Assembly: GCA_029557905.1 (NCBI GenBank)
Contig: JAKQHR010000015.1
Span: 1,557 to 65,556 of the forward strand
Origin: Verrucomicrobiota bacterium
GTDB lineage: Bacteria; Verrucomicrobiota; Kiritimatiellia; JAKQHR01
DNA length: 64,000 bases
Direction of reading: 5' to 3'
Below, piece after piece: positions 555 through 32,760 of this stretch. The notes beneath the pieces were generated by a model, which ran no database searches, was not told where the DNA came from, and was given only the letters and a program-made list of their open reading frames with translations. A program made the translations under genes and the position numbers. Positions within the stretch are counted from its first letter, which is position 1. Each line of letters starts with the position of its first letter.

Positions 555-1541
555 TTACCTGCAGTTCATTCTCTCCCGCAGCTGTTTTGAAAATGCGGGC
601 GCGCCGTGCCGGCGGTTGAGATGATCTTCATCCATGAAATATTTCGTTTCAAAAACAAAATCGGGATTGGCGGAAAAATCGTAGTATTCCACATTGTGCT
701 TCCTCGCAAGCGCTTTCATGTTGCGGCGGAAGGTCTCGACCATGTTCCGGTCGGCCAGTTCCGTGTAGCGGAAGAAGTAGGGCGGGGTGAAGAAGACCGG
801 GCGGATATCCTGCGCCTGAAGGAAGCGGATCGTCCGTTCAAGACAGGCATAGGTGTCTTCCGGCAAACCCGGACAATTCTGGAGCATGTCGTTCATAAGC
901 TTCGCATGTTCCACTATTCTTGCTTTTTCTGCACGTTCAATCAGCACGTTAATATTCCGGAAACCCTTAAACTGGCGGTCCCGGTTCCGGCTTCCGTCGC
1001 GGGGATTGGATTCCTTCGCTGGCCGCGGCTGCTGTCCGAGCAGGCGAAGCAGGGTGGTATACCCGTGGTCGGGCCGGATCAGGTTGATCAGCCGGGCTTT
1101 CACAAAACTTTGGAAGTCTCCCGGAATCCATTTCCAGCCCGGAAGGTAGGCATACGCTTCCACGCGCTTGGACTTGCGGTCGAGAATCGTGGCCGCCCGG
1201 TTGTCGGCAACGAATGTATGAAATGATACGGCATAATAAACCGTGCGCACCTTGGGCAGCCGGGGAATCAGGGTTTTCAGGTGAAGCTCAGTTTCAAAGA
1301 CATCATTCCCGCCCAGCCAGATATGGTATCCCCGCTCACCGAGGGCATCGAAGTCAATGGCCTTGCAGTGAGAATTCCCGGCCGCGACCGCTTCGATTTC
1401 ATTCGCCTGCCGCAGCAGGTTCTGCATCCGGAATTTGATGTCGGGATAGACCGGATCCATCCGGCTCCACAGGGCGGCGCAGAACAAAACAATTCCGATG
1501 AGCCCGGCCGTGAACAATATACTCTGCTGCAGTTGTTTCAT
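555..1541 (-). CDS. SGNH-fold / DltD-like membrane-anchored acyltransferase partner
   Basis: N-terminal TM helix, block-I-like GNSH and C-terminal DEDHLN (DxxH). Sits between two MBOAT genes. Start reassigned to MKQLQQ at 1541, abutting the MBOAT stop. Confidence 0.65.
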   Translation of the reverse strand: MKQLQQSILFTAGLIGIVLFCAALWSRMDPVYPDIKFRMQNLLRQANEIEAVAAGNSHCKAIDFDALGERGYHIWLGGNDVFETELHLKTLIPRLPKVRTVYYAVSFHTFVADNRAATILDRKSKRVEAYAYLPGWKWIPGDFQSFVKARLINLIRPDHGYTTLLRLLGQQPRPAKESNPRDGSRNRDRQFKGFRNINVLIERAEKARIVEHAKLMNDMLQNCPGLPEDTYACLERTIRFLQAQDIRPVFFTPPYFFRYTELADRNMVETFRRNMKALARKHNVEYYDFSANPDFVFETKYFMDEDHLNRRHGAPAFSKQLRERMNCR

Positions 1542-1542
1542 T

Positions 1543-3024
1543 TCAGAACTGAAAATATATAAACTCCACAACTTCAAAGCGTCCGAAAACAAGGATAGTC
1601 ATGATCAGGCTGTAGTAGATCAGCCAGCGGCACCAGACCGGGCGTTCGGCCAGAAATTCCGAGATGCCCTGCCTGTCATGAATAAGCTGGACCGTTTCCA
1701 TCACCGTGACAGCCGCCACTCCTATGAGCAGTTCCCAGAGGGTGTGGCCGACCACCACGGGTGCAAGGGCGGCCCGTCGAAGATGAAAGACATCGTTCAG
1801 CCATGCCGGCAGGCCGGTCGGCAGGTTCCGGATGATGTGCACAGCCTCCCGGATGTCCGCGGCTCTGAAGAATATCCATCCGAAGAAGAGCAGAAAGAGC
1901 GTCGAGGCGATATTGATGAACCGATGAAAACGCGGGTGTTTTTTCAGCCCGGTTTGCTCGCACCATCTGCGCCGGGTGTTGAAACTGAGATATTCCAGAA
2001 TTAGATAGGTTCCATGGAGTGCCCCGCACGCAATAAAAGTCCACGCGGCTCCATGCCAGAGGCCGCTGATCATGAACACCAGCAGCAGACTGATCACCCA
2101 CCACCGTTTGCTTGTGCTGCGGCCGCAGAGGGGGAGATACAGATAATCACGAAGCCACGTGCTCAGTGAAATATGCCAGCGCTGCCAGAATTCCGTGATG
2201 GAGCGGGAAATAAACGGGCGGTTGAAATTGCGCATGAGATCAAATCCCAGTACGCGCGCGGCGCCGATGGCGATGTCCGAGTAGCCCGAAAAGTCACAGT
2301 AGATCTGCCAGCCGAAAAGAATCCCCGCCACAATATAACTGATCCCCTGCCAGTTCTCCGGCTGGTCGAACACCGCATTCACGAACAGCGCGAGCCGGTC
2401 CGCAATCACCAGTTTCTTGAAGAAACCCCAGAGCATCAGACGGAGCCCGCTGCACATGCGGTCAAAACGGAAGTGGTGCACTGCGCTGAACTGCGGCAGA
2501 AGCCGCGCGGCACGCTCTATCGGCCCGGCCACCAGCTGGGGGAAGAAGGACACATAGAGCGCAAATTTCCCAAAATGTGCTTCGGGCCGCTGGCTTCCCC
2601 GATAAACGTCGATGAGATAACTCATGGTCTGGAATGTGTAGAAAGAAATTCCCACCGGCAGCAGCACGTTGAACGCGGGCACTCCGTAAAAAAGATTGAA
2701 GTGATTGAAGAGCGTCCGGAACGAATCGTTGAAGAAGTTGAAATATTTGAACGCAAACAAAATGGCGAGATTCACGCCCAGGCTCACGGTGAGGCACAGA
2801 TGCCTGCGGGAATCGTTCTGCGGGAGTGTCCCGATGCACAGCCCGCCCCCGTAGCCGGCGAGAGTGGACGCGAGAAGCAGCAGCCCGTATTCCGCCTTCC
2901 AGCACATGTAGAAATAGTAGCTGGCGGCCAGCAGCAGCGCCCAGCGGAAGCGATGAGGGCAGAGAAAGTAAGCCGCTGTAACCAGCGGAAAGAATAAAAG
3001 GAACTCCAGCGAATTAAACAGCAT
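1543..3024 (-). CDS. MBOAT family O-acyltransferase (AlgI/DltB-like)
   Basis: LPVGISFYTFQ, FFPQLVAGPIER, DFSGYSDIAIG, FWQRWHISLSTW and SGLWHGA (catalytic His) motifs. Confidence 0.93.
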   Translation of the reverse strand: MLFNSLEFLLFFPLVTAAYFLCPHRFRWALLLAASYYFYMCWKAEYGLLLLASTLAGYGGGLCIGTLPQNDSRRHLCLTVSLGVNLAILFAFKYFNFFNDSFRTLFNHFNLFYGVPAFNVLLPVGISFYTFQTMSYLIDVYRGSQRPEAHFGKFALYVSFFPQLVAGPIERAARLLPQFSAVHHFRFDRMCSGLRLMLWGFFKKLVIADRLALFVNAVFDQPENWQGISYIVAGILFGWQIYCDFSGYSDIAIGAARVLGFDLMRNFNRPFISRSITEFWQRWHISLSTWLRDYLYLPLCGRSTSKRWWVISLLLVFMISGLWHGAAWTFIACGALHGTYLILEYLSFNTRRRWCEQTGLKKHPRFHRFINIASTLFLLFFGWIFFRAADIREAVHIIRNLPTGLPAWLNDVFHLRRAALAPVVVGHTLWELLIGVAAVTVMETVQLIHDRQGISEFLAERPVWCRWLIYYSLIMTILVFGRFEVVEFIYFQF

Positions 3025-3181
3025 GCCCGATTTCTATCCCTGGTTTTCCCCGGGTTTCACAGTGATTCCTCATGATGGGAACGGATTCTCTGAAAATCCT
3101 TGGGCGTGGGCAAGTCCATAAAGACGGGTTTGTTGTCTCGATGATTGCCATGCCGGGGGGCATCGCGATAGAGTGGACAGC

Positions 3182-4303
3182 ATGAAGATTGCTTTTGTGA
3201 AACAGAAATATGTCCCCTTTGGCGGAGGGGAGCTGTATCTCGAAAGGCTGGCCGGGGCCTGCCGCGACCGGGGGGACGAGGTCCATTTGATTACTGCCGC
3301 CTGGCCGGGGAACAGAGTTTCTGCTTTCACTGTTCATCCTGTTCCTGTTCGAAACTGGTCTCATGCCTCGGTGGCGAGGTCTTTCTCGCACAATCTGAAG
3401 GAGATCATCCGGTCGGTCGGGTTCGATGTGGTCTTCAGTCTGGACCGGACCGAACAGCAGCACATCTGGCGTGCGGGCGAGGGGGCTCATCCGGTCTGGC
3501 TGGACCGCCGCGGCGAATTTGAGCCGGCGTGGAAAGTCAGGCTGGCGCGTCTGTCATCGCGGCAAAGGACCCTGTTGAAGCTGGAGAGGCGATGCGTGAG
3601 CCGGACCCCTGTGATTATCGCGAATTCGCAGATGGTGAAAAATGATCTCGAGAACTGCTATGATCTTTCCGGAAAACGCGTGGAAATAATTCACAATGGC
3701 GTTGATTTTTCCCGCTTTTCTCCGGACGGACGCGAAGAGGCGCGCACCCAGGTGCGCTCACGCTTGCAGGTGAATCCCGACGGCCCGCTGCTGCTGTTTG
3801 CCGGAAGCGGGTTTCGCAGGAAGGGGCTCCCGGAACTGATGCGTGCGCTGCGTGGCGTGCCCGATGCGGTCCTGCTGGTTATCGGCCGGGACAAATCCGC
3901 CCCCTGGATTCGTTTGGCTGCGAGTCTGGGGGTCTCTGGCCGGGTGCGTTTTCTGGCCCCATCCGAATCTCTGCCGGAGCTGTATCGCGCGGCCGATGTG
4001 ACGGTGTTCCCGACATGGTTTGATTCCTTCGGGTTTGTCGGACTCGAGTCCATGGCCTGCGGGACCCCGCTGGTCACGACCCCTTTTGCCGGTGTATCGG
4101 AGCTGGTCCGCGAGGGGGTCAATGGCGCGGTGATCGCGCGCCCGGATGCCGCCGATGAACTGGCGGCGGCCATACAAGACCAGGTTTCCCGGAAAGACAG
4201 GAGCCGGGCCATCGCGGATTCCGTGAGAGAATATTCTCTGGAAAACAACATCCGCCGAACCCTTGCGGTCATAGATGACACCGCGTTCAGCCGCAAATCA
4301 TGA
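3182..4303 (+). CDS. Glycosyltransferase family 4 (WaaG/RfaG-like)
   Basis: GGGE N-terminal motif, RKG, and DSFGFVGLESMACGTP (EX7E-type with Asp in place of the first Glu). Confidence 0.9.
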   Translation: MKIAFVKQKYVPFGGGELYLERLAGACRDRGDEVHLITAAWPGNRVSAFTVHPVPVRNWSHASVARSFSHNLKEIIRSVGFDVVFSLDRTEQQHIWRAGEGAHPVWLDRRGEFEPAWKVRLARLSSRQRTLLKLERRCVSRTPVIIANSQMVKNDLENCYDLSGKRVEIIHNGVDFSRFSPDGREEARTQVRSRLQVNPDGPLLLFAGSGFRRKGLPELMRALRGVPDAVLLVIGRDKSAPWIRLAASLGVSGRVRFLAPSESLPELYRAADVTVFPTWFDSFGFVGLESMACGTPLVTTPFAGVSELVREGVNGAVIARPDAADELAAAIQDQVSRKDRSRAIADSVREYSLENNIRRTLAVIDDTAFSRKS

Positions 4304-20759: not shown

Positions 20760-20894
20760 AATGCCTCCACCGCGAAGAAACTTGAATAAGAATCGGCGAT
20801 TTGTTACACAATAATGCCGCAAGTGGCGCGGATGTGTCCGCGACCCGGCAACCAGGAGCATGTGGTGCCTGAATCCGTACAGTCGACATCCGTG

Positions 20895-22841
20895 ATGCTG
20901 CAGATCCCGCTGCGGAGAAAACTCTCGTTGATCTGGACGTATGCCCGGGAGCGGCTGATGCGCCAGGTGCATGCGGTGGCCTTCATCACGGGATATCTGG
21001 CGCTCTTTCAGCTTCTCGTGCTGCGCGCCCCGATTGCGGATTTTCTGAAAATCGCCGCGGGTATTCTTGCCGTGGTGGCGGGTCTGGCTTTTTTCATGGA
21101 AGGGCTGTTTCTGGCCATCATGCCCCTCGGGGAACGCTGCGGACTGCGCATGCCCGCGCGTGCCGGTCTGGGCCTGCTTGTGGCGTTTGCGGTGATCCTC
21201 GGAATTACCGCCACCTATGCGGAGCCGGCCATAGGATTCCTGAAGGCGCAGGGGAGTTCCACTCTGCCCTGGCGCGCGCCGCTGCTGTATTATCTCCTGA
21301 ACGCCGGCGCGCCGCTCACCGTGGGCGCGGTGGCCGTCGGGGTTGGCTTTGCCGTGGTGCTTGGGGTCTTCCGGTCCCTGCGCTCGTGGAGTTTCAAGCC
21401 TTTCCTGTACCTGACGATTCCCGTCCTTCTGGCGCTCTCGTACTGGGTTTCACGTGATCCGCGCACGGCCGCCATCATCGGACTGGCGTGGGATACCGGG
21501 GGGGTGACCACGGGGCCGGTGACCGTGCCGCTGGTGATCGCGCTGGGAATTGGAGTTTCACGCATTGCCGGCCGCGGCGATGAACCCTCCAGCGGCCTGG
21601 GTGTTGTTACGCTGGCTTCGGCGCTTCCGGTGATCATGGTCCTGCTGCTCGGCGCTGTGCTGGCCCCGCGGTTCCCGATGCCCGGCGGACCGGATGAGTT
21701 CTTTGCGCCGGAGCGTCACAATCAGTCGGTGCGGGTGGCCGGAAGCGAAGAGGCTTTTCGCGAACTGGCGGCAAACAATCTGTCTCCCGAGAAGGTCAAA
21801 ACCCGTTTCGGGACGGAATCCAAGAAGAAGCCCTCAGATGCCGGCCCGCGCCGGCATGTGCCGCGCAAGATGATGAGGGCCCATGCCGTCAACGCTCTGA
21901 AAGCCATTGTCCCGCTGGCCGCCGTGCTGCTTCTTGCGCTGCTGTTGATTGTGCGTGAGCGACTGCCGCACAACGACGAGGTTTCGCTGGGGCTGGTGTT
22001 CAGCCTGGTTGGGATGCTGCTGTTCAGTTACGGCATGGATCGCGGTCTTTCAAGCCTTGGAAATCAGGCCGGCCGCTCTCTGCCGCGCGCGTGGGAGGCC
22101 ACGGAGCGCCCGGACAAGGCCGTGACCTACAGCGGCATAAATGAGAACCTTCTGGTGCGCGCCGTCCGCCCCAACGGCTCCGTCGCAGAGTATCTTCCGC
22201 TGGCGGACAAGGGCGGGCCGCAGTTTGTGCCGTTCATCCGCGAACGGTACGATGCGGACCGGGCCGAGTACCGCTGGATTCCCGAACAGGGTCCTGTGGC
22301 CGGCGATGAGGATTTCTGGGGCTATGCGCTGGTGCTGCTCTTTGTGTTTGTGATGGGTTTGGGCGCAACCATTGCGGAACCTTCACTGAACGCGCTGGGC
22401 GTGACACTGGAAGAGCTGACGACGGGAACCTACAAGCGCTCTTTCCTCATAGTGACCGTGGCCCTGGGCGTGGGCGCCGGCATGGCCATGGGATTCTGCC
22501 GAATACTGTTCGCCTGGCCCATGATCCCCCTTCTCGCGGGGTGTTACCTCGTGGCTCTTGCGCTGACCTGCATTTCGACGGAAGAAATGTCGGCCATTGC
22601 ATGGGACTGCGCGGGCGTAACGACTGGTCCCATCACGGTTCCGCTGGTTATTGCCGCAGGTTTGGGCATTGGCCAGCGCGCCGGCGCGGCCGAGGCTTTC
22701 GGCGTGGTGACCATGGCCTCCGTGTTTCCGATCATCGCGGTGCTGCTTTCCGGTTTTCTGATCGCCGCCCGGCGAAACGCGCTCGACCTTGAAAATCTGC
22801 AGATGGATGCGGCCCCGGCAGAACGGGAGGCAAAGCCGTGA
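20895..22841 (+). CDS. DUF1538 membrane protein with two fused DUF1538 units
   Basis: Duplicated motifs TYAEPA/TIAEPSL and AWDTGGVTTGPVTVP/AWDCAGVTTGPITVP. Start uncertain (20814 or 20895). Confidence 0.82.
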   Translation: MLQIPLRRKLSLIWTYARERLMRQVHAVAFITGYLALFQLLVLRAPIADFLKIAAGILAVVAGLAFFMEGLFLAIMPLGERCGLRMPARAGLGLLVAFAVILGITATYAEPAIGFLKAQGSSTLPWRAPLLYYLLNAGAPLTVGAVAVGVGFAVVLGVFRSLRSWSFKPFLYLTIPVLLALSYWVSRDPRTAAIIGLAWDTGGVTTGPVTVPLVIALGIGVSRIAGRGDEPSSGLGVVTLASALPVIMVLLLGAVLAPRFPMPGGPDEFFAPERHNQSVRVAGSEEAFRELAANNLSPEKVKTRFGTESKKKPSDAGPRRHVPRKMMRAHAVNALKAIVPLAAVLLLALLLIVRERLPHNDEVSLGLVFSLVGMLLFSYGMDRGLSSLGNQAGRSLPRAWEATERPDKAVTYSGINENLLVRAVRPNGSVAEYLPLADKGGPQFVPFIRERYDADRAEYRWIPEQGPVAGDEDFWGYALVLLFVFVMGLGATIAEPSLNALGVTLEELTTGTYKRSFLIVTVALGVGAGMAMGFCRILFAWPMIPLLAGCYLVALALTCISTEEMSAIAWDCAGVTTGPITVPLVIAAGLGIGQRAGAAEAFGVVTMASVFPIIAVLLSGFLIAARRNALDLENLQMDAAPAEREAKP

Positions 22842-27699: not shown

Positions 27700-28434
27700 A
27701 TGACCAATGTTGTGAATGCGCATGAAACTGAAATGAAGCCGAAAATTGGAATGGCCGTCGCCAGCCTGATTCTGGGGTGCCTGTCCATCGGATACGGATT
27801 GTTTGTTATCGGCGTTCTTTTCGCGGTTCCGGGGCTCATTCTGGGTGTGCTCCATTTCCGGCTGCGCGCAAATTTCCGCGCGATGGCCGTGTGGGGCGCT
27901 GTGCTTTCCCTCCTCGGGCTGCTCCTTTCCGGCTGGGTGGGATACAGCTTTTTCCGCGCCTACCGCGCCGCGTCGGGCGGCGGAAGCAGCTCGTTCGATG
28001 AGTGGCAGGGCGTCGAGGCGCCGGATTTCAGTGTGACCACTCTCGACGGGCAAAAGATCCAGCTGTCGGACCTGCGAGGCAGGCCGGTGATTGTTGACTT
28101 CTGGGCCACCTGGTGCCCGCCGTGTGTGAAGGAAATCCCGCATTTCATCCGGCTGGCCGGTGAATACAGTCCCGATGAACTGACAGTCGTCGGCATCAGC
28201 AGGGAAGAGGAGGCTGTGCTGGCGGAATTCGCCGCGAAGAAGGGGATCAACTATCCGATTGCATCGGCAAACGACTTGCCCGCGCCGTACAGCGAAGTCC
28301 GGTCCATCCCGACCACATTCTTCATAGACGCCGACGGCGTCATTCAGGCCGTGTTCGAGGGCTATCATGACTACGACGCACTCAAAGCCGCCGCCTTTGC
28401 TGAAGATGTCCCGGAAACTGCGCCTGAAGAATAA
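27700..28434 (+). CDS. TlpA-family thiol-disulfide oxidoreductase with DUF4190-like membrane anchor
   Basis: APDFSV..LDG, VDFWATWCPPC and IPTTFFID; N-terminal AVASLILG two-TM segment. Confidence 0.88.
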   Translation: MTNVVNAHETEMKPKIGMAVASLILGCLSIGYGLFVIGVLFAVPGLILGVLHFRLRANFRAMAVWGAVLSLLGLLLSGWVGYSFFRAYRAASGGGSSSFDEWQGVEAPDFSVTTLDGQKIQLSDLRGRPVIVDFWATWCPPCVKEIPHFIRLAGEYSPDELTVVGISREEEAVLAEFAAKKGINYPIASANDLPAPYSEVRSIPTTFFIDADGVIQAVFEGYHDYDALKAAAFAEDVPETAPEE

Positions 28435-28489
28435 AAAATGCCCGCCCGGTGATGCCGGCGGCCTGCGCCCGCGATTTCGTTTTGAGGGC

Positions 28490-29060
28490 CTGAAAAACCT
28501 CAAAAAACGGCCCAAAATGGCCAAAAACAGCCAAAAAACGGCCAAAAATGGTCAAAAACGGCCAAAAAACGCCCAAAAACGGCCTGAAAACGGGTTCTTC
28601 TACGATTTTCGTGGGAACATTGGTCGAAATGGAACTGGCTGCGGGGAAGAAATAAAGAACAGGACACAGCCAGATACAGGAGCTGGGAACATAATTTCCC
28701 GGAGAATCGGCGTGATCATGGCGGCGGTGTAGTAGCGCCTCTGTGAGGCGCATTCTGAAACATATGCCGCTCGCAGAGCGGCTACTACACCAGAACCCCT
28801 GCAAATAAAGGCGTTCCCGGCTGTTGTGATCATGGAACGACGAACATGAAAAGCCGTCTGTGAATTCGTGTGAAAGCGGCGTCCAGCCGCCGCACTCCAA
28901 AGCGCCGCGAAGGTGGCGCAACGTTTATCATTTAACGCCAGAAGTTGATTTGGATATCAAAACCTTCCACGATAATTGACGAAGAACCCAAAAATGGCCC
29001 AAAACGGCCTGAAAACGCCCAAAAACGTGAAAAATTCGAATTAGTACTAATTTAGTACTA
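28490..29060. repeat. Phased A-tract array (about 10-11 bp unit, e.g. CCAAAAACGG) ending in TAGTACTAATTTAGTACTA, copy 1, interrupted by a MITE
   Basis: A4-A6 tracts recur at 28493-28590 and 28990-29037; palindrome at 29042-29060. Confidence 0.85.
28593..28988. mobile_element. Non-autonomous ISL3-like MITE, copy 1 (396 bp)
   Basis: Terminal IRs GGTTCTTCTACGATTTTCGTGG / GGTTCTTCGTCAATTATCGTGG (18/22). Reverse-complement homolog of 63318-63721. No transposase ORF. Confidence 0.72.
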
Positions 29061-29099
29061 TATAACCGCCTCCAGTCTCTGCATTTCCTTCAGCCTTCT

Positions 29100-29460
29100 T
29101 TATCATTCTGACTCCTGACTTCTGAATCCTGACTCCTGTCTTTTTTCCCACTTTCTTCTGGCATTCCGCTCCGCCCCTGCGTTATTCTTCGGAACGGCGA
29201 GGGGGTCCAGGAGGACGGACTGAAAGTGAACGACAGACCGGAAACGGCAGGACTCGCGCTGAACACACCCCATACCTGTAACCTTTCTTTTCACCATCAC
29301 GAACCTGAAGATTTCTCGCGCAGGGGCGCAGGGACGCGGAGGGGATGAATAGATATTTCACCGCAAAGAACGCAAGAGAGCGCAGAGAATTAACTGCATA
29401 AAACGCGGAATGGACGAAAGAAGAAGCGGCGCGCGGAAACACAGAAAAGAACGGAACGAA
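29100..29460. repeat. Low-complexity short-period repeats (TCCTGAC/TTCTGAA heptamers, CGCAAAGAACGCAAG-type motifs)
   Basis: attctgactcctgacttctgaatcctgactcctg at about 29106-29139; motifs at 29325-29390 recur at 32490-32632. Confidence 0.6.
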
Positions 29461-29518
29461 TGTTAGATGTTAAGACCCGACCCCATTAACCATTAAGTAA
29501 CGAAGATACAACCCTAAC

Positions 29519-29525
29519 GTTAGGC
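29519..29525 (+). other. Integron core site R' (GTTAGGC) of a degenerate attC or attI preceding cassette 1
   Basis: ccctaacGTTAGGC is the exact complement of the R'' GCCTAAC closing cassette 1. The upstream arm is not clearly recognisable. Confidence 0.7.
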
Positions 29526-29540
29526 ATTAAGGAGACAGCT

Positions 29541-30230
29541 ATGGCGAAAATGAAAAGGCAGTTTATTCCCAATCAGGTCTTTGTTGGTCTCCCGTGGAAA
29601 AATGTACGCCCACGATACGAGCGCATTATCACTTCGCTCAACAAAAAGTATCCACTTCACTTCACGATAGTCGGACGGGATGATGGACAAAATGCTGTGG
29701 CGTTATTCGAGGTTATTAAGGATCGCATTGCCTCCTCAAGCTATGCGATTTTCGATGCCACGGGAGGAAACGCAAATGTATCACTCGAATATGGGTATGC
29801 CGAGGGGATTGAAGTCCCCAGATCGCTCTTCTTGAGCTCACATAAAGCGGCGCGTAAAGCCTCTGCAGGTGATCCAATTATTTCGGATCTGATCGGTATG
29901 CGCCGAGTTCCATACAAGACAGAATCAGTTCTCTCCAAAGAACTAAACAGCTTTAGCCGTAACCATGATTTTACAAAGCGATTCGAAAAGGCGTTGTTTG
30001 TCATTCTGAAAGGCAAAATAAAAGGTAAAAAGAAGAGCGGCCGCGCTCTGGCCCTAAAGATCATTCATTCGCTCGGCGGAAAGTCTCAAATACGCCGAGC
30101 TGAACTCATTCAACATTTTCAGGCGCAAAGCTATGAAGTCAAGGACATCGAAACAATGTTGAAGGGATTGCATCAACAAAAGATAGTCAAATGCTCTGTC
30201 GGGAAGTACTCCGATGTGAACATTGCCTAA
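29541..30230 (+). CDS. Cassette 1: nucleoside deoxyribosyltransferase-like/TIR-like domain plus C-terminal winged-helix-like domain
   Basis: VFVGLPW and IASSSYAIFDATGGNANVSLEYGYAEG (IaDlT..NpNV.yElGyA signature); basic helical C-terminus; RBS AAGGAG; visibly AT-rich. Confidence 0.75.
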   Translation: MAKMKRQFIPNQVFVGLPWKNVRPRYERIITSLNKKYPLHFTIVGRDDGQNAVALFEVIKDRIASSSYAIFDATGGNANVSLEYGYAEGIEVPRSLFLSSHKAARKASAGDPIISDLIGMRRVPYKTESVLSKELNSFSRNHDFTKRFEKALFVILKGKIKGKKKSGRALALKIIHSLGGKSQIRRAELIQHFQAQSYEVKDIETMLKGLHQQKIVKCSVGKYSDVNIA

Positions 30231-30301
30231 CAAAGCACTTCACACTTATAAAATGGGCCGCGCAGACGAGTCCCGTTACAAGGGTGAGGCCGACGTTCGA
30301 T
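30225..30301 (+). other. attC site 1
   Basis: GCCTAAC overlaps the stop codon; L boxes CTTCAC/GTGAGG; ends GTTCGAT. Confidence 0.82.
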
Positions 30302-30316
30302 TACAGATGAGAGGAA

Positions 30317-30904
30317 ATGCGTATGACTAATAATCCAAAGAGCCTTAAACGGTTTAAGTGGGTAGTAGAAATACTCGGCCCATCTATTATTGCAGCATTA
30401 GCCGTTATTGCCGGGGTCGTTCTTGGCGAGAAGAGAGCCTATAAGGCTGCGGAAGGGGAGGTGCGTGCGGAATTGAAAAAGGAGATGTACCAGGCACAAG
30501 CTAAGTACCTGCAAAATCTTAGGATATTAACAGAGCTCGGGGAAAGACTCACTAGTATGACATTCCATGAAAAGTGGATCGATCAAAATGGAGAATTGGT
30601 TGCAGAAGACAATATCGGGATAACGCGGATCTTCCCATCGGTCATTAATGAGACCGAAACGAAATCGAAATGGACAAATATAGCGGCCCAAACAAGACTT
30701 GCGGAAGATGTCATCGACCCAGATATCTATTTGGCCTTTAAAGATCTAGTAAACTTAGTTGATGAATATCCCTGGCCAACTGAAATGAATGTATCAGAAG
30801 TAGAAAAGTCTGGTTGGGCAGAGAAAGACCGTGTTGGAAGGTGGCTGATGTTAAATAAATATCTTGTTCTTAAACTAGATAAATACAAGTTCCTTGAGGA
30901 GTAG
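30317..30904 (+). CDS. Cassette 2: hypothetical protein with N-terminal TM helix
   Basis: Single ORF bounded by GTTCGAT and ATCGAAC core sites; TM at ILGPSIIAALAVIAGVVLG; AT-rich. Confidence 0.75.
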   Translation: MRMTNNPKSLKRFKWVVEILGPSIIAALAVIAGVVLGEKRAYKAAEGEVRAELKKEMYQAQAKYLQNLRILTELGERLTSMTFHEKWIDQNGELVAEDNIGITRIFPSVINETETKSKWTNIAAQTRLAEDVIDPDIYLAFKDLVNLVDEYPWPTEMNVSEVEKSGWAEKDRVGRWLMLNKYLVLKLDKYKFLEE

Positions 30905-30924
30905 TATTCCTTGTCTGAACAATA

Positions 30925-31028
30925 ATCGAACCACGGGCTGGAGTCTGCCGGTGCCCGCCGCGCGTCGCTGAAGCTATGCAGGGCGAGCCTGCGATTGAAG
31001 CACCGGAGACTCACCCCTAACGTTAGAA
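30925..31028 (+). other. attC site 2
   Basis: ATCGAAC ... GAGTCT(G)CCGGTGC / GCACCGGAGACTC stem with one extrahelical base ... GTTAGAA. Confidence 0.85.
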
Positions 31029-31041
31029 GGGATGATAAATC

Positions 31042-31980
31042 ATGAGAATACTCGTATTGTTGTTCGCTCTTCTCGGGAACTGCACCATCGGTCTCGCGTT
31101 CAGTGTTCATGATGGCTGGATACAAAGCGTAGCCTATATTGCCAATGAGTCGACTGGGGGTGCTGGCACGGGATTCTTCGTTGCGCGTTCCGTTAGCCCT
31201 GGTCATTCGAAAATCTTCCTCGTGTCGAATAAGCACGTTCTGAACCCCCGAACGCTTGCGCCAACTGAATCGAACGCATATGCTACCGCCACACTCTTCA
31301 TCACAACTGAAAAAGCAGGAGTCTTGTCATTGGAGAAGATACCTATAGTCCTTCGCGAAACCAACGGAAACAGCAAAGTCGTTGGCCACCCACGGGATGA
31401 TGTCGATGTGGCAGTGATGGAAGCGACAAGCTATGTTACCGATCCTTCGGGGGGCCTCAGGCAGGGATACCGCGTCGGATTCGTTGCAGAAGACCAGTTT
31501 GCCACAACTGAGGGCATCACAAACAGCCATCTTTCCGTGGGTGATAGAATCATCCTCCTTGGATATCCGCTCAACCTTGTTGAAGGCAGTAGTGCAATAC
31601 CTGTTGCGCGGGGTGGAACCATTTCAACACCACCTGAGCGCGACTTCCGGGGGACTCCAGTTTTCCTAATCGACTGTCCCACGATCCGCGGATCCAGTGG
31701 AAGTCCAGTATTCAGCCCCTTACGTCCCTGTACTGTCGAGCTCAACGGCATGAACGCCAGCATCAACCCCATGGGCTTTTACGTGCCAGAATTCTTGGGC
31801 ATGGTATCGGCCACAATCCCCGACTGGGAGTTGATTCTAAAGAAAACCGATTCGTTCGGGATGCCTCCAACGGCAATCTCTGTGATGGATACTGCAAACT
31901 TCGGCATTGTGTTTCGCGCCGATTCGATCTCCGAGACCCTCGATCACACTGGATGTATGCGACACCGGGAGAAGAAATAG
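31042..31980 (+). CDS. Cassette 3: secreted trypsin-like serine protease
   Basis: Signal peptide; TGFFV, VSNKHV (His), DVDVA (Asp), GYP and GSSGSP (Ser). Confidence 0.85.
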   Translation: MRILVLLFALLGNCTIGLAFSVHDGWIQSVAYIANESTGGAGTGFFVARSVSPGHSKIFLVSNKHVLNPRTLAPTESNAYATATLFITTEKAGVLSLEKIPIVLRETNGNSKVVGHPRDDVDVAVMEATSYVTDPSGGLRQGYRVGFVAEDQFATTEGITNSHLSVGDRIILLGYPLNLVEGSSAIPVARGGTISTPPERDFRGTPVFLIDCPTIRGSSGSPVFSPLRPCTVELNGMNASINPMGFYVPEFLGMVSATIPDWELILKKTDSFGMPPTAISVMDTANFGIVFRADSISETLDHTGCMRHREKK

Positions 31981-31983
31981 ACC

Positions 31984-32052
31984 TTCTAACAACGGCCTTC
32001 AGATTTTCCAGTGCCCCGCTGGGGTACTGGAAACTGAGGTCGGGCGTTCGAC
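31984..32052 (+). other. attC site 3
   Basis: TTCTAAC ... CCTTCAG-AT-TTTCCAGTGCCCC gct GGGGTACTGGAAA-CTGAGG ... GTTCGAC. Confidence 0.87.
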
Positions 32053-32145: not shown

Positions 32146-32249
32146 CAAAATGGGCCATATAACAGGCCAAAACCGCTTAAAAATGCCTAAAAATGGCCAA
32201 AAAACGCCCCAAAACGTGAAAAATGCGAAATAGTACTAAATTAGTACTA
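32146..32249. repeat. Phased A-tract array ending in TAGTACTAAATTAGTACTA, copy 2 (no MITE)
   Basis: A-tracts at 32147-32225; palindrome at 32231-32249. Confidence 0.85.
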
Positions 32250-32650
32250 TTTAACAGGTGTTCCGCTGAGGAGCATTAACCCGCGAACCGGCTTTGTCCG
32301 GAGGCCTCGTTGGGGCAGGGGCAGTGCGGCTGAGTCTCCGCGCGACAATCCGTTTTGTGCCTTTTGTGCCTTTTCGTGGCCAGCTTCTGAAACGGCGGCA
32401 GAAGAAGATTTACCACCAAGACACCAAGGCGCGGAGTTCCGGAAAAGAATTCACCATGAAGAAAAGAAGATCATGAAGACATAAATTAACCGCAAAAGTG
32501 CGCAAGGAGCGCATAGAAAGTATTCAGCAGTCAGAATGGGGAATCCTTCAACCTTCAACCTGCAACCTTCAACCGTCTTCATCCGTGGTCATGAATCTGA
32601 AGTCTTCTCTGCGTCCCTGCGTCTCCGCGCGAATATCTTCTTGTTCTCCC

Positions 32651-32760
32651 GCAAAAAGGCTCAAAAAGCGCAAAAAATGCCCAAAAACGGCTAAAAACGG
32701 CCAAAAAAGGCCAATTTTTCGTTATTTTTTACGTTTTTTGGTCATTTTTTGCGTTTTTCG
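32651..32760. repeat. Head-to-head A-tract / T-tract array (imperfect inverted repeat)
   Basis: Phased A5-6 tracts at 32653-32708, then phased T5-6 tracts at 32714-32758 whose reverse complement resembles the first half. Confidence 0.72.

What the first reader, a model, noticed from the sequence alone, without database searches (positions are those of the whole stretch)
29519..32052. Integrase-less integron cassette array (CALIN) with three perfectly matched cassettes
Seen: each gene is preceded by a core site exactly complementary to the inverse core after it: GTTAGGC/GCCTAAC, GTTCGAT/ATCGAAC and GTTAGAA/TTCTAAC. The attC stems show extrahelical bases, genes are co-oriented and AT-rich, and no intI is in the window. 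Two cores are non-canonical GTTCGAY. Established: this complementarity is the hallmark of excisable cassettes. Integrons are little studied in PVC bacteria.
Basis: partly seen in the sequence, partly recalled or inferred. Interest (0 to 1): 0.75.

Follow-up and report, generated by a model that had tools for sequence, protein, structure and literature searches.

The report
Three-cassette integron array without integrase
A 2.5-kb stretch of a wastewater Kiritimatiellia genome is a genuine array of three mobile integron gene cassettes with no integrase nearby, which is a well-known kind of element (a CALIN) in a phylum where none had been described.

Summary

- **Cassette boundaries.** Three co-oriented ORFs (29541-30230, 30317-30904, 31042-31980) each have a 7-nt core 20-22 nt before the start codon. 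The exact reverse complement lies at or just after the stop. Each attC ends in the core of the next cassette. Shuffled sequence never reproduced the two chain links.
- **attC model.** I built a covariance model from 20 attC sites of other integrons. It ranks attC3 first (E 0.0012), attC1 second (E 0.007) and attC2 fourth (E about 1), all with exactly the predicted ends.
- **Cassettes found elsewhere.** Homologues of cassettes 1 and 3 sit in strong attC arrays in other bacteria, some with the same boundary heptamers. The arms of attC2 are 110-470 times deeper than the genome in six metagenomes, and the similarity starts at AAC and stops at GTT.
- **No integrase.** No intI was found in the 64 kb.
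- **Population.** The array is identical in at least 16 contigs and absent from the only related genome found.
- **Cores.** GTTCGAY cores are rare but occur in other arrays.
- **Scores.** It is a new member of a known kind, of modest interest.

The parts
29495..29525 (+). Upstream boundary: a relic resembling the 3' arm of an attC, ending in the first core site R' GTTAGGC (29519-29525). The recombination point is between G29519 and T29520.
   Evidence: Positions 29495-29523 match the 3' arm of attC2 (30998-31026) at 23 of 29 positions, including an exact CCCTAACGTTAG. The covariance model finds no complete attC upstream, and 29440-29525 does not fold (z +0.5).
29520..30295 (+). Cassette 1 (776 bp). 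Its ORF is 29541-30230 (229 aa): a weak nucleoside-2-deoxyribosyltransferase/TIR-like N-terminal domain plus a C-terminal winged helix.
   Evidence: Core GTTAGGC and inverse core GCCTAAC match exactly. There are 614 homologues at 63-74% identity in many phyla. In L044/L045 the homologue is a cassette with the same GTTAGGC ... GCCTAA(C) boundaries, followed by a 48.8-bit attC. No Pfam or NCBIfam hit; PADLOC TIR E 0.009; Foldseek E 0.015.
30225..30301 (+). attC1 (77 nt): R'' GCCTAAC, L'' ACT[T]CAC, L' GTGAG, R' GTTCGAT.
   Evidence: Model R1 gives 18.6 bits, E 0.0074, rank 2 in the window with exact ends. It is a weak hairpin in the array context (z +0.4) and -11.1 kcal/mol as a circular form. 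It is single copy in the metagenomes.
30296..31022 (+). Cassette 2 (727 bp). Its ORF is 30317-30904 (195 aa): an N-terminal membrane anchor, function unknown.
   Evidence: Core GTTCGAT and inverse core ATCGAAC match exactly. Only distant relatives exist (25-34% identity, 46 representatives). No family hit.
30925..31028 (+). attC2 (104 nt): R'' ATCGAAC, arms GGAGTCT[G]CCGGTGC / GCACCGGAGACTC, R' GTTAGAA. It belongs to a high-copy attC family in the same communities.
   Evidence: Model R1 gives 11.3 bits, E about 1, rank 4 with exact ends. Bottom strand z -1.9, and -27.6 kcal/mol as a circular form. Depth over 30929-30956 is 686-3203 against 5-16 for the genome in six runs. Similarity starts at AAC and ends at GTT.
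31023..32046 (+). Cassette 3 (1024 bp). Its ORF is 31042-31980 (312 aa): a trypsin-like serine protease with a signal-peptide-like N-terminus.
   Evidence: Core GTTAGAA and inverse core TTCTAAC match exactly. Pfam Trypsin_2 5e-8; PADLOC PDC-S45 1.3e-32. H65, D122 and S219 are invariant in the family alignment. Homologues are cassettes in L012/L020 (same GTTAGAA/TTCTAAC), L018, L019 and L032.
31984..32052 (+). attC3 (69 nt): R'' TTCTAAC, L'' CCT[T]CAG, L' CTGAGG, R' GTTCGAC. This is the last site of the array.
   Evidence: Model R1 gives 21.3 bits, E 0.0012, rank 1 with exact ends. Bottom strand z -3.8, top strand z -4.8. It is single copy in the metagenomes and shows no joints. No GTCGAAC partner lies downstream.

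Best explanation
Positions 29519-32052 are a cluster of three integron gene cassettes lacking a local integron integrase (a CALIN). It sits in an AT-rich, repeat-laden intergenic region of a Kiritimatiellia chromosome, between an AhpC/TSA-like gene and an M54-like protein gene followed by serS.

**What is shown.** Each cassette is a promoterless ORF with its own ribosome-binding site, followed by an attC site. The boundaries show the circular permutation that IntI-type recombination leaves: cleavage between G and TT of the core, so that a cassette's first six bases complement its own R''.

**What is inferred.**
- The cassettes were captured by an integron integrase acting on folded bottom-strand attC hairpins. 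They came from a cassette pool that circulates in wastewater and sludge communities.
- The array is most likely a truncated fragment of a larger array. A relic of an attC 3' arm precedes cassette 1.
- It is now fixed in this population.
- It could still be excised or shuffled only by an integrase supplied in trans, possibly from an integron elsewhere in the same genome.
- At least cassettes 1 and 3 plausibly encode single-gene anti-phage functions.
For: **Boundaries.** Core/inverse-core complementarity is exact in 3 of 3 cassettes, each attC ends in the next cassette's core, and shuffles never gave two chain links.

**attC model.** A covariance model trained only on other integrons' attC sites places the three sites at ranks 1, 2 and 4 in 128 kb of both strands. 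All have exact ends and lie on the gene strand. The bulged bases have canonical polarity.

**Cassettes found elsewhere.**
- Cassette-1 homologues lie in arrays with attCs of 30-53 bits and share the GTTAGGC/GCCTAAC boundaries.
- Cassette-3 homologues are cassettes in at least 4 other arrays. Two have the same GTTAGAA core. One array has at least 13 cassettes.
- The three families never co-occur elsewhere, so they behave as independent modules.
- The arms of attC2 are a high-copy family bounded exactly by AAC and GTT, with different flanks.

**Foreign origin.** The array is 48% G+C against 60%, and it is absent upstream of the orthologous gene in Kiritimatiellia MAG L007.

**No integrase.** tblastn with IntI1 gives a best E of 1.4, no box II motif occurs in any long ORF, and Pfam finds nothing on the low-GC ORFs.

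**Fixation.** The array is identical in 16 contigs and in at least 12 runs from 2016-2024.
Against: - The attC scores are low (11-21 bits), whereas independent attCs in other arrays score 30-53 bits. The higher values include training sites.
- attC2 alone is not significant, and attC1 folds no better than shuffles in its array context.
- IntegronFinder's own model could not be run.
- Two R'' boxes (ATCGAAC, TTCTAAC) depart from RYYYAAC.
- No excision or rearrangement junction appears in the assembled contigs. Recombination activity is therefore unproven, although contigs hide rare variants.
- The truncated-array origin rests on a single match of 23 out of 29 positions.
Confidence: 0.87

Rival explanations
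1. The array is an active satellite of a complete integron elsewhere in the same genome. The native IntI still excises and reinserts these cassettes, so the element is 'integrase-less' only locally.
For: - Two contigs of about 650 and 683 nt carry attC2-like 5' arms and track this genome's depth at about 1:1 across 5-6 runs (r 1.00 and 0.97).
- About half of CALINs are in replicons that encode IntI (PMC4889954).
- All three core/inverse-core pairs are still perfect.
Against: - No intI was located, and the rest of the genome could not be searched.
- The array content is invariant in every contig and run examined.
- No alternative junctions appear at attC1 or attC3.
- The total attC2-family depth does not track the genome (r 0.08).
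Confidence: 0.3
2. A circle of three cassettes was inserted in one step at a non-specific secondary site (GTT) of the chromosome by a transiently present integrase. On this reading it is not the remnant of a larger array.
For: - There is no complete attC or recognisable attI upstream of cassette 1.
- The last R' (GTTCGAC) has no partner downstream.
- IntI-mediated creation of CALINs at secondary sites is documented (PMC4889954).
Against: - The 29 nt before the first recombination point resemble the 3' arm of attC2 (23 of 29, with an exact CCCTAACGTTAG). That is expected for a pre-existing attC, not a random target.
- No empty-site sequence was recovered.
Confidence: 0.2
3. The complementary heptamers are chance, or the palindromes are ordinary terminators or REP-like repeats between unrelated small genes of a genomic island. 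No integron is involved.
For: - The region is full of dispersed repeats and hairpins.
- A naive scan for AAC...GTT plus a hairpin is non-specific in this GC-rich genome.
- attC1 folds weakly.
Against: - Shuffles never reproduce the chained boundaries.
- An independent attC model picks exactly these ends.
- The same boundaries flank homologues in unrelated genomes.
- The attC2 family's similarity is delimited by AAC and GTT.
Confidence: 0.02

Closest known systems
CALIN (cluster of attC sites lacking integron-integrase; Cury et al. 2016, IntegronFinder, PMC4889954)
   Same: - It has at least two attC sites on one strand, less than 4 kb apart, with no intI nearby.
- It has few cassettes (83% of CALINs have fewer than six).
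- Its cassettes are unrelated to the resistance cassettes of mobile integrons.
- No recognisable intI pseudogene lies nearby, as for 95% of CALINs.
   Different: - The host is a Kiritimatiellia MAG lineage. No paper in the searched library links that group with integrons.
- The attC sites are heterogeneous in length (69, 77 and 104 nt) and low-scoring.
- Two of the four cores are GTTCGAY.
Cassette arrays of class 1 mobile integrons (for example In2 of R100: intI1-attI1-aadA1)
   Same: - The cassette anatomy is the same: core G|TTRRRY, ORF, then an attC with R''-L''...L'-R' and a bulged base in L''.
- The covariance model trained partly on class 1 attCs recognises the window's sites.
   Different: There is no intI1, attI, Pc promoter, 3' conserved segment or resistance genes, and the array is chromosomal. 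IntI1 has no homologue in the window.
Sedentary chromosomal integrons with large homogeneous attC families (Vibrio VCR arrays; here the environmental arrays L032 and L049)
   Same: - attC2 belongs to a high-copy family with conserved arms and variable loops and flanks, as in such arrays.
- The cassettes encode candidate anti-phage functions, as reported for sedentary chromosomal integron cassettes (bioRxiv 10.1101/2024.07.02.601686).
   Different: The window has only three cassettes, with three unrelated attC types and no integrase. It looks like a sample drawn from several cassette pools, not an in-situ array of one family.

Membership tests
CALIN / integron cassette array | At least two attC sites on the same strand less than 4 kb apart, detected by an attC covariance model | tested here: met
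   I used model R1, built from 20 attCs of other integrons. attC3 scores E 0.0012, attC1 E 0.0074 and attC2 E about 1. All are on the + strand with exact ends, and spacing is 624-956 nt. This is a substitute model with rough E-values.
CALIN / integron cassette array | Detection by IntegronFinder's own attC model and thresholds | not testable with these tools
   IntegronFinder and its attC_4 model are not available here, and Rfam holds no attC family.
CALIN / integron cassette array | attC architecture: R'' (RYYYAAC) and R' (GTTRRRY) boxes, an unpaired central spacer, L''/L' boxes with an extrahelical base on the R''/L'' arm, a variable loop, and a length of about 57-141 nt | tested here: met
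   Lengths are 77, 104 and 69 nt. The invariant AAC and GTT triplets are present in all three. The L boxes pair with a one-base bulge at the model's bulge column (T, G, T). Deviations: R'' ATCGAAC and TTCTAAC, and R' GTTCGAT and GTTCGAC, depart from the degenerate consensus.
CALIN / integron cassette array | Cassette circular permutation: the six bases after the G of the upstream core complement the cassette's own R'' | tested here: met
   3 of 3 cassettes show exact 7-nt complementarity, chained through shared R' sites. Shuffles never gave two links.
CALIN / integron cassette array | No integron integrase within 4 kb | tested here: met
   tblastn with IntI1 against the whole 64-kb window gives a best E of 1.4. 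No tyrosine-recombinase box II motif occurs in any long ORF. The neighbours are an AhpC/TSA-like gene, an M54-like gene and serS.
CALIN / integron cassette array | Cassettes are mobile units found in different arrays | tested here: met
   Cassette 1 is supported and cassette 3. For cassette 2, only its attC is shared with many other cassettes.
CALIN / integron cassette array | attC sites are recombined by an integron integrase through the folded bottom strand | not testable with these tools
   This needs recombination assays or raw-read junction analysis. Only assembled contigs were available, and they show no junctions.
Complete integron | An intI gene with an adjacent attI site and a Pc promoter upstream of the first cassette | tested here: not met
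   There is no intI. Positions 29067-29518 are a mosaic of short dispersed repeats with no coding similarity to IntI. No promoter-like site lies upstream of cassette 1 on the + strand.
Sedentary chromosomal integron array | More than 10 cassettes with homogeneous attC sites | tested here: not met
   There are three cassettes with three dissimilar attCs.

The most novel reading that the evidence does not exclude
This Kiritimatiellia lineage carries, elsewhere in its genome, a large active integron that uses the abundant attC2-type family and favours GTTCGAY cores. The three-cassette array would then be a satellite through which single-gene anti-phage cassettes are exchanged with the wastewater cassette pool. 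This would be the first integron system characterised in Kiritimatiellota.
Probability: 0.2. Interest if true: 0.5.

Novelty: new member of a known kind. Interest (0 to 1): 0.3.

Why it matters
- **Host range.** It extends documented integron cassette arrays to Kiritimatiellia, an uncultivated PVC lineage common in sludge and digesters.
- **Shared cassette pool.** The same cassette families circulate across very distant phyla: a 229-aa NDT/TIR-like plus winged-helix protein, and a PDC-S45-type protease. They keep their recombination boundaries.
- **Testable defence candidates.** It offers two compact single-gene anti-phage candidates.
- **A detection trick.** attC-family depth spikes in metagenome assemblies can reveal large integron arrays that short-read binning loses.
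- **No new mechanism.** It does not reveal a new mechanism.

Tried and rejected
1. **Fold-only scan.** I scanned for NNNNAAC...GTTNNNN plus a hairpin. It gave hundreds of hits in this GC-rich DNA and was abandoned as non-specific.
2. **Rfam.** Only two tRNAs pass the gathering threshold. In E-value mode only spurious miRNA-like hairpins appear, and there is no attC family.
3. **First attC alignment.** The 26-site alignment (A2) had misaligned members. I rebuilt it as A3 with 20 sites.
4. **Upstream 29067-29518 as an integron platform.** There is no IntI similarity, and read laying shows a mosaic of 45-85-nt dispersed repeats.
5. **Joints skipping about 3.7 kb between A-tract repeats.** Examples are 28517->32227 and 28989->32733. 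Only 24-30 nt lie on one side, at contig ends. These are repeat artefacts, not empty sites.
6. **Joint 29285->30998.** It comes from a contig sharing only 85 nt of dispersed repeat.
7. **attC2 arm in IMG/VR.** One pattern gave 0 hits. A shorter one gave 2 chance hits that are not attCs.
8. **Cassette 2.** The word-indexed search found only itself. Full HMMER found only distant relatives of unknown function.
9. **The three genes as one system.** There is no co-occurrence in any fetched locus.
Full report
**1. What is there**

The stretch 29519-32052 holds three co-oriented ORFs on the + strand: 29541-30230 (229 aa), 30317-30904 (195 aa) and 31042-31980 (312 aa).

- GTTAGGC 29519 and GCCTAAC 30225
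- GTTCGAT 30295 and ATCGAAC 30925
- GTTAGAA 31022 and TTCTAAC 31984
- a final GTTCGAC at 32046

Taking the recombination point as G|TT gives this layout:

| Cassette | Coordinates | Length | attC site | attC length |
|---|---|---|---|---|
| 1 | 29520-30295 | 776 bp | 30225-30301 | 77 nt |
| 2 | 30296-31022 | 727 bp | 30925-31028 | 104 nt |
| 3 | 31023-32046 | 1024 bp | 31984-32052 | 69 nt |

Each core lies 20-22 nt before its ATG, and a purine-rich ribosome-binding site lies in between. The array is 48% G+C (cassettes 46, 45 and 52%), against 60% for the rest of the window.

**2. Is it more than chance?**

I scanned for ORFs of at least 50 aa with three features: a GTTNNNN up to 60 nt upstream, its exact reverse complement within -12 to +45 of the stop, and another GTT 45-138 nt further on.
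- In the real window the scan finds the three cassettes and four scattered hits.
- Only the three cassettes are chained, meaning the R' that ends one attC is the core of the next. That makes 2 links.
- One hundred block shuffles gave a mean of 1.16 hits and 0.02 links, and never 2 links.
- The same scan recovers the known cassettes of class 1 integrons (VIM, IMP-1, aac(6')-IIa, aadA2 and others).

A cruder scan based on AAC...GTT plus folding energy alone was hopelessly non-specific in this GC-rich DNA and was dropped.

**3. Structure**

As DNA in the array context:
- The attC3 bottom strand folds far better than shuffles (z -3.8).
- attC2 folds moderately (z -1.9).
- attC1 folds no better than shuffles (z +0.4).

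When each site is rebuilt as it would be in the excised circle (G plus the cassette's own first six bases), all three bottom strands form one hairpin closed by the 7-bp R''/R' box. The energies are -11.1, -27.6 and -17.7 kcal/mol.

The unpaired bases lie on the 5' arm of the top strand, which is the 3' arm of the bottom strand. This is the polarity of canonical attC sites, where the extrahelical bases of the R''/L'' side mark the recombinogenic bottom strand (established knowledge; PMC2727003).

**4. An independent attC model**

IntegronFinder's model is not available, and Rfam has no attC family. I therefore built one.

Training set, 20 sites in all:
- Starting from the aadA1 attC, I fetched class 1 arrays from plasmids and took eight distinct attCs.
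- I added twelve attCs from three environmental arrays found later (L012, L018, L032).
- No window sequence was used.

Validation:
- The 20-site alignment supports a 17-bp R-box plus L-box structure. 88% of cells pair, against 26-42% when partners are slid.
- The covariation score is 0.44 against 0.14 in shuffles, with 0 of 500 shuffles reaching it.

Result of searching all 64 kb on both strands with filters off:

| Rank | Site | Coordinates | Bits | E-value |
|---|---|---|---|---|
| 1 | attC3 | 31984-32052 | 21.3 | 0.0012 |
| 2 | attC1 | 30225-30301 | 18.6 | 0.0074 |
| 3 | false positive lacking AAC/GTT | 20867-20968 | 15 | 0.089 |
| 4 | attC2 | 30925-31028 | 11.3 | about 1 |

- All three sites are on the gene strand with exactly the predicted first and last bases.
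- In each alignment a single base (T, G, T) falls at the model's bulge column between the two halves of L''.
- No fourth attC was found.

The scores are nevertheless low. Attcs not used in training score 30-53 bits in other arrays with the same model, and up to 80 bits when training sites are included.

**5. The cassettes are mobile units elsewhere**

Cassette 3:
- It encodes a Trypsin_2 protease (Pfam 5e-8). It is a strong match to the PADLOC phage-defence candidate PDC-S45 (1.3e-32).
- The His65/Asp122/Ser219 triad is invariant across 22 relatives.
- Homologues at about 55% identity occur in many metagenome contigs. Several are themselves cassettes:
  - L012/L020, with the same GTTAGAA core and TTCTAA(C) inverse core
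  - L018, inside an array of textbook attCs
  - L019 (GTTGGAG/CTCCAAC)
  - L032 (GTTGGGC/GCCCAAC), in an array of at least 13 cassettes with near-identical attCs

Cassette 1:
- It belongs to a 229-aa family with 614 members at 63-74% identity. Hosts include bacteria labelled Bryobacterales, Burkholderiales, Eisenbacteria and Sumerlaeota.
- In L044/L045 and L049/L050 the homologue sits in arrays with attCs of 30-53 bits.
- In L044 it has the same GTTAGGC upstream core and the same GCCTAA(C) overlapping the stop codon as in the window.

Cassette 2:
- It has only distant relatives (25-34% identity).

The three families never co-occur in any fetched locus. That is what independent cassettes, not an operon, would predict.

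**6. attC2 belongs to a very abundant attC family**

I laid Logan contigs of six sludge, digester, wastewater and landfill metagenomes on the locus.
- The genome's depth is 5-16.
- Depth rises to 686-3203 over 30929-30956 (the 5' arm) and to 167-932 over 31006-31026 (the 3' arm).
- The loop stays much lower.
- The contigs that carry the locus break inside attC2.
- The extra contigs match only from the AAC of R'' (30929) to the GTT of R' (31024), then run into unrelated sequence. After GTT they continue, for example, with CGAC..., CGCA... or CGGT....

This is the signature of many cassettes sharing one attC type. The family's total depth does not follow the genome's (r 0.08). Two specific contigs of about 650 and 683 nt do follow it, at about 1:1 in 5-6 runs (r 1.00 and 0.97). 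From this I infer, with moderate confidence, that the same genome holds further attC2-type cassettes elsewhere.

attC1 and attC3 are single copy. Each shows one contig and no joints, even at 80% likeness.

**7. No integrase here; the array is fixed; context**

Integrase:
- IntI1 taken from R100 finds nothing by tblastn in the window or in six allelic contigs (best E 1.4).
- No tyrosine-recombinase box II motif lies in any long ORF.
- Pfam on eight ORFs from the lower-GC parts of the window shows only housekeeping domains.

Population:
- The same three-cassette array, more than 99.7% identical, is in 16 contigs from JGI, ENA and three NCBI MAGs.
- It is also in at least 12 runs from 2016-2024.
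- No variant content was seen.

Relatives:
- The only related genome found is a Kiritimatiellia MAG with about 79% nucleotide identity over serS and tilS (L007).
- It has no cassettes and no attC hit upstream of the orthologous M54-like gene. It has only a 500-bp AT-rich spacer with the same A-tract repeat. Upstream synteny differs.

**8. Origin**

The 29 nt ending at the first recombination point (29495-29523) match the 3' arm of attC2 at 23 of 29 positions, with an exact CCCTAACGTTAG. No complete attC or foldable site lies upstream. I read this as the stump of a preceding attC. That makes the array a truncated piece of a larger one, either through loss of the upstream part or through a rearrangement.

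Insertion of a three-cassette circle at a secondary GTT site is the main alternative. Both routes are among those proposed for CALINs (PMC4889954).

No sigma-70-like site precedes cassette 1 on the + strand. How the cassettes are expressed is unknown.

**9. Cassette functions (inferred, low to moderate confidence)**

- **Cassette 3** is a single-gene defence candidate (PDC-S45) with a signal-peptide-like N-terminus.
- **Cassette 1** was modelled with mean pLDDT 67. The C-terminal half is confident and the region 74-124 is poor. Only weak structural matches resulted (best Foldseek E 0.015). The N-terminal domain matches nucleoside 2-deoxyribosyltransferase/DNPH1, and the C-terminal domain matches winged-helix domains. 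This agrees with a marginal PADLOC TIR hit (E 0.009).
- **Cassette 2** is a membrane-anchored protein of unknown function.
- Defence genes are a known major cargo of chromosomal integron cassettes (bioRxiv 10.1101/2024.07.02.601686).

**10. The GTTCGAY cores**

Two of the four cores are GTTCGAT or GTTCGAC. Among 44 distinct attCs that the model found in other loci, the fourth base of R' is A in 39, G in 3 and C in 2 (GTTCGGC). Chained GTTCGGC/GCCGAAC and GTTCGGT/ACCGAAC cassettes occur in L032 and L015. Some attC2-family members are also followed by GTTCG.... The variant is therefore unusual but not new. Whether it reflects the preference of a particular integrase is untested.

**11. Comparison and verdict**

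The element meets every testable criterion of a CALIN. It fails those of a complete integron or a sedentary chromosomal integron.

Integrons are already known in Verrucomicrobia (PMC4889954) and Planctomycetes (PMC8352920). I found no paper linking them with Kiritimatiellia.

It is a new member of a known kind. It is real, well delimited and mechanistically ordinary, and it carries two tidy defence-candidate cassettes. There is also a hint that a larger integron exists in the same genome or community.

Noticed in passing
window 28473-28606, 28981-29066, 32149-32255, 32633-32758, 63740-63830; L007 9760-9850: This is a dispersed intergenic repeat. It consists of arrays of A-tracts phased every 10-11 nt (AAAAAYGGCC)n, the geometry expected for intrinsically bent DNA. 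In three copies the array is followed by the conserved TCGAAATAGTACTAAWTTAGTACTATWTAAC (29042, 32231, 63806; 0 expected by chance). Two copies, 86% identical over 77 nt, flank the cassette array as direct repeats. One A-tract array is an inverted pair directly upstream of the M54-like gene. The repeat is multi-copy in the metagenome contigs. Its function is unknown.
   Followed up: partly
window 28726-28791; L002 1-1457: In one allelic contig (L002) an IS110-family element (DEDD_Tnp_IS110 plus Transposase_20) ends at window position 28781/28782. That is inside the right arm of a 28-nt-arm palindrome which is itself multi-copy in the metagenomes (depth 80-210 against about 10).
   Followed up: partly
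window 29100-29500 and 32260-32650: The non-coding stretches on either side of the array are mosaics of short repeated modules, such as GACTCCTGACTTCTGAATCCTGAC, CCTTCAACCTTCAACCTGCAACC and CGCAGGGGCGCAGGGACGCGGAG. Some are shared in inverted orientation between the two sides (29316-29341 / 32607-32632 and 29104-29123 / 32519-32538). They also appear as 45-85-nt pieces in other contigs of the same metagenomes.
   Followed up: partly
window 30929-30956 and 31006-31026: Short-read assemblies break inside attC2, because its arms are shared by a very large attC family in sludge and digester communities (110-470 times the genome's depth). A variant with a 15-nt loop (CGCTGCGCGGGTTCG) recurs in all six runs. 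Such depth spikes could be used to find integron arrays that binning loses.
   Followed up: yes
L032 358-10443 (Ga0209454_1000953); L049 4747-12464 (Burkholderiales MAG JABTUF010000003.1): These are two large environmental cassette arrays with near-identical attC sites: at least 13 sites in L032 and at least 16 in L049. That is typical of sedentary chromosomal integrons. L032 includes chained GTTCGGC/GCCGAAC cassettes. L049 has several attC-to-attC intervals of about 430 nt with no called gene. No intI lies within the fetched parts.
   Followed up: partly
window 28367-28732 (+) and 28382-28921 (-): These long ORFs are produced by translating the A-tract repeat (for example ...KNSQKTAKNGQKRPKNAQKRPENG...). 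They are artefacts of the repeat, although gene callers do call a 79-aa product here in L001.
   Followed up: no
window 20867-20968: This is the third-best hit of the attC model (15 bits, E 0.09). It lies inside a long ORF, lacks the AAC and GTT triplets, and is a false positive. It is a useful gauge of the model's noise level.
   Followed up: yes
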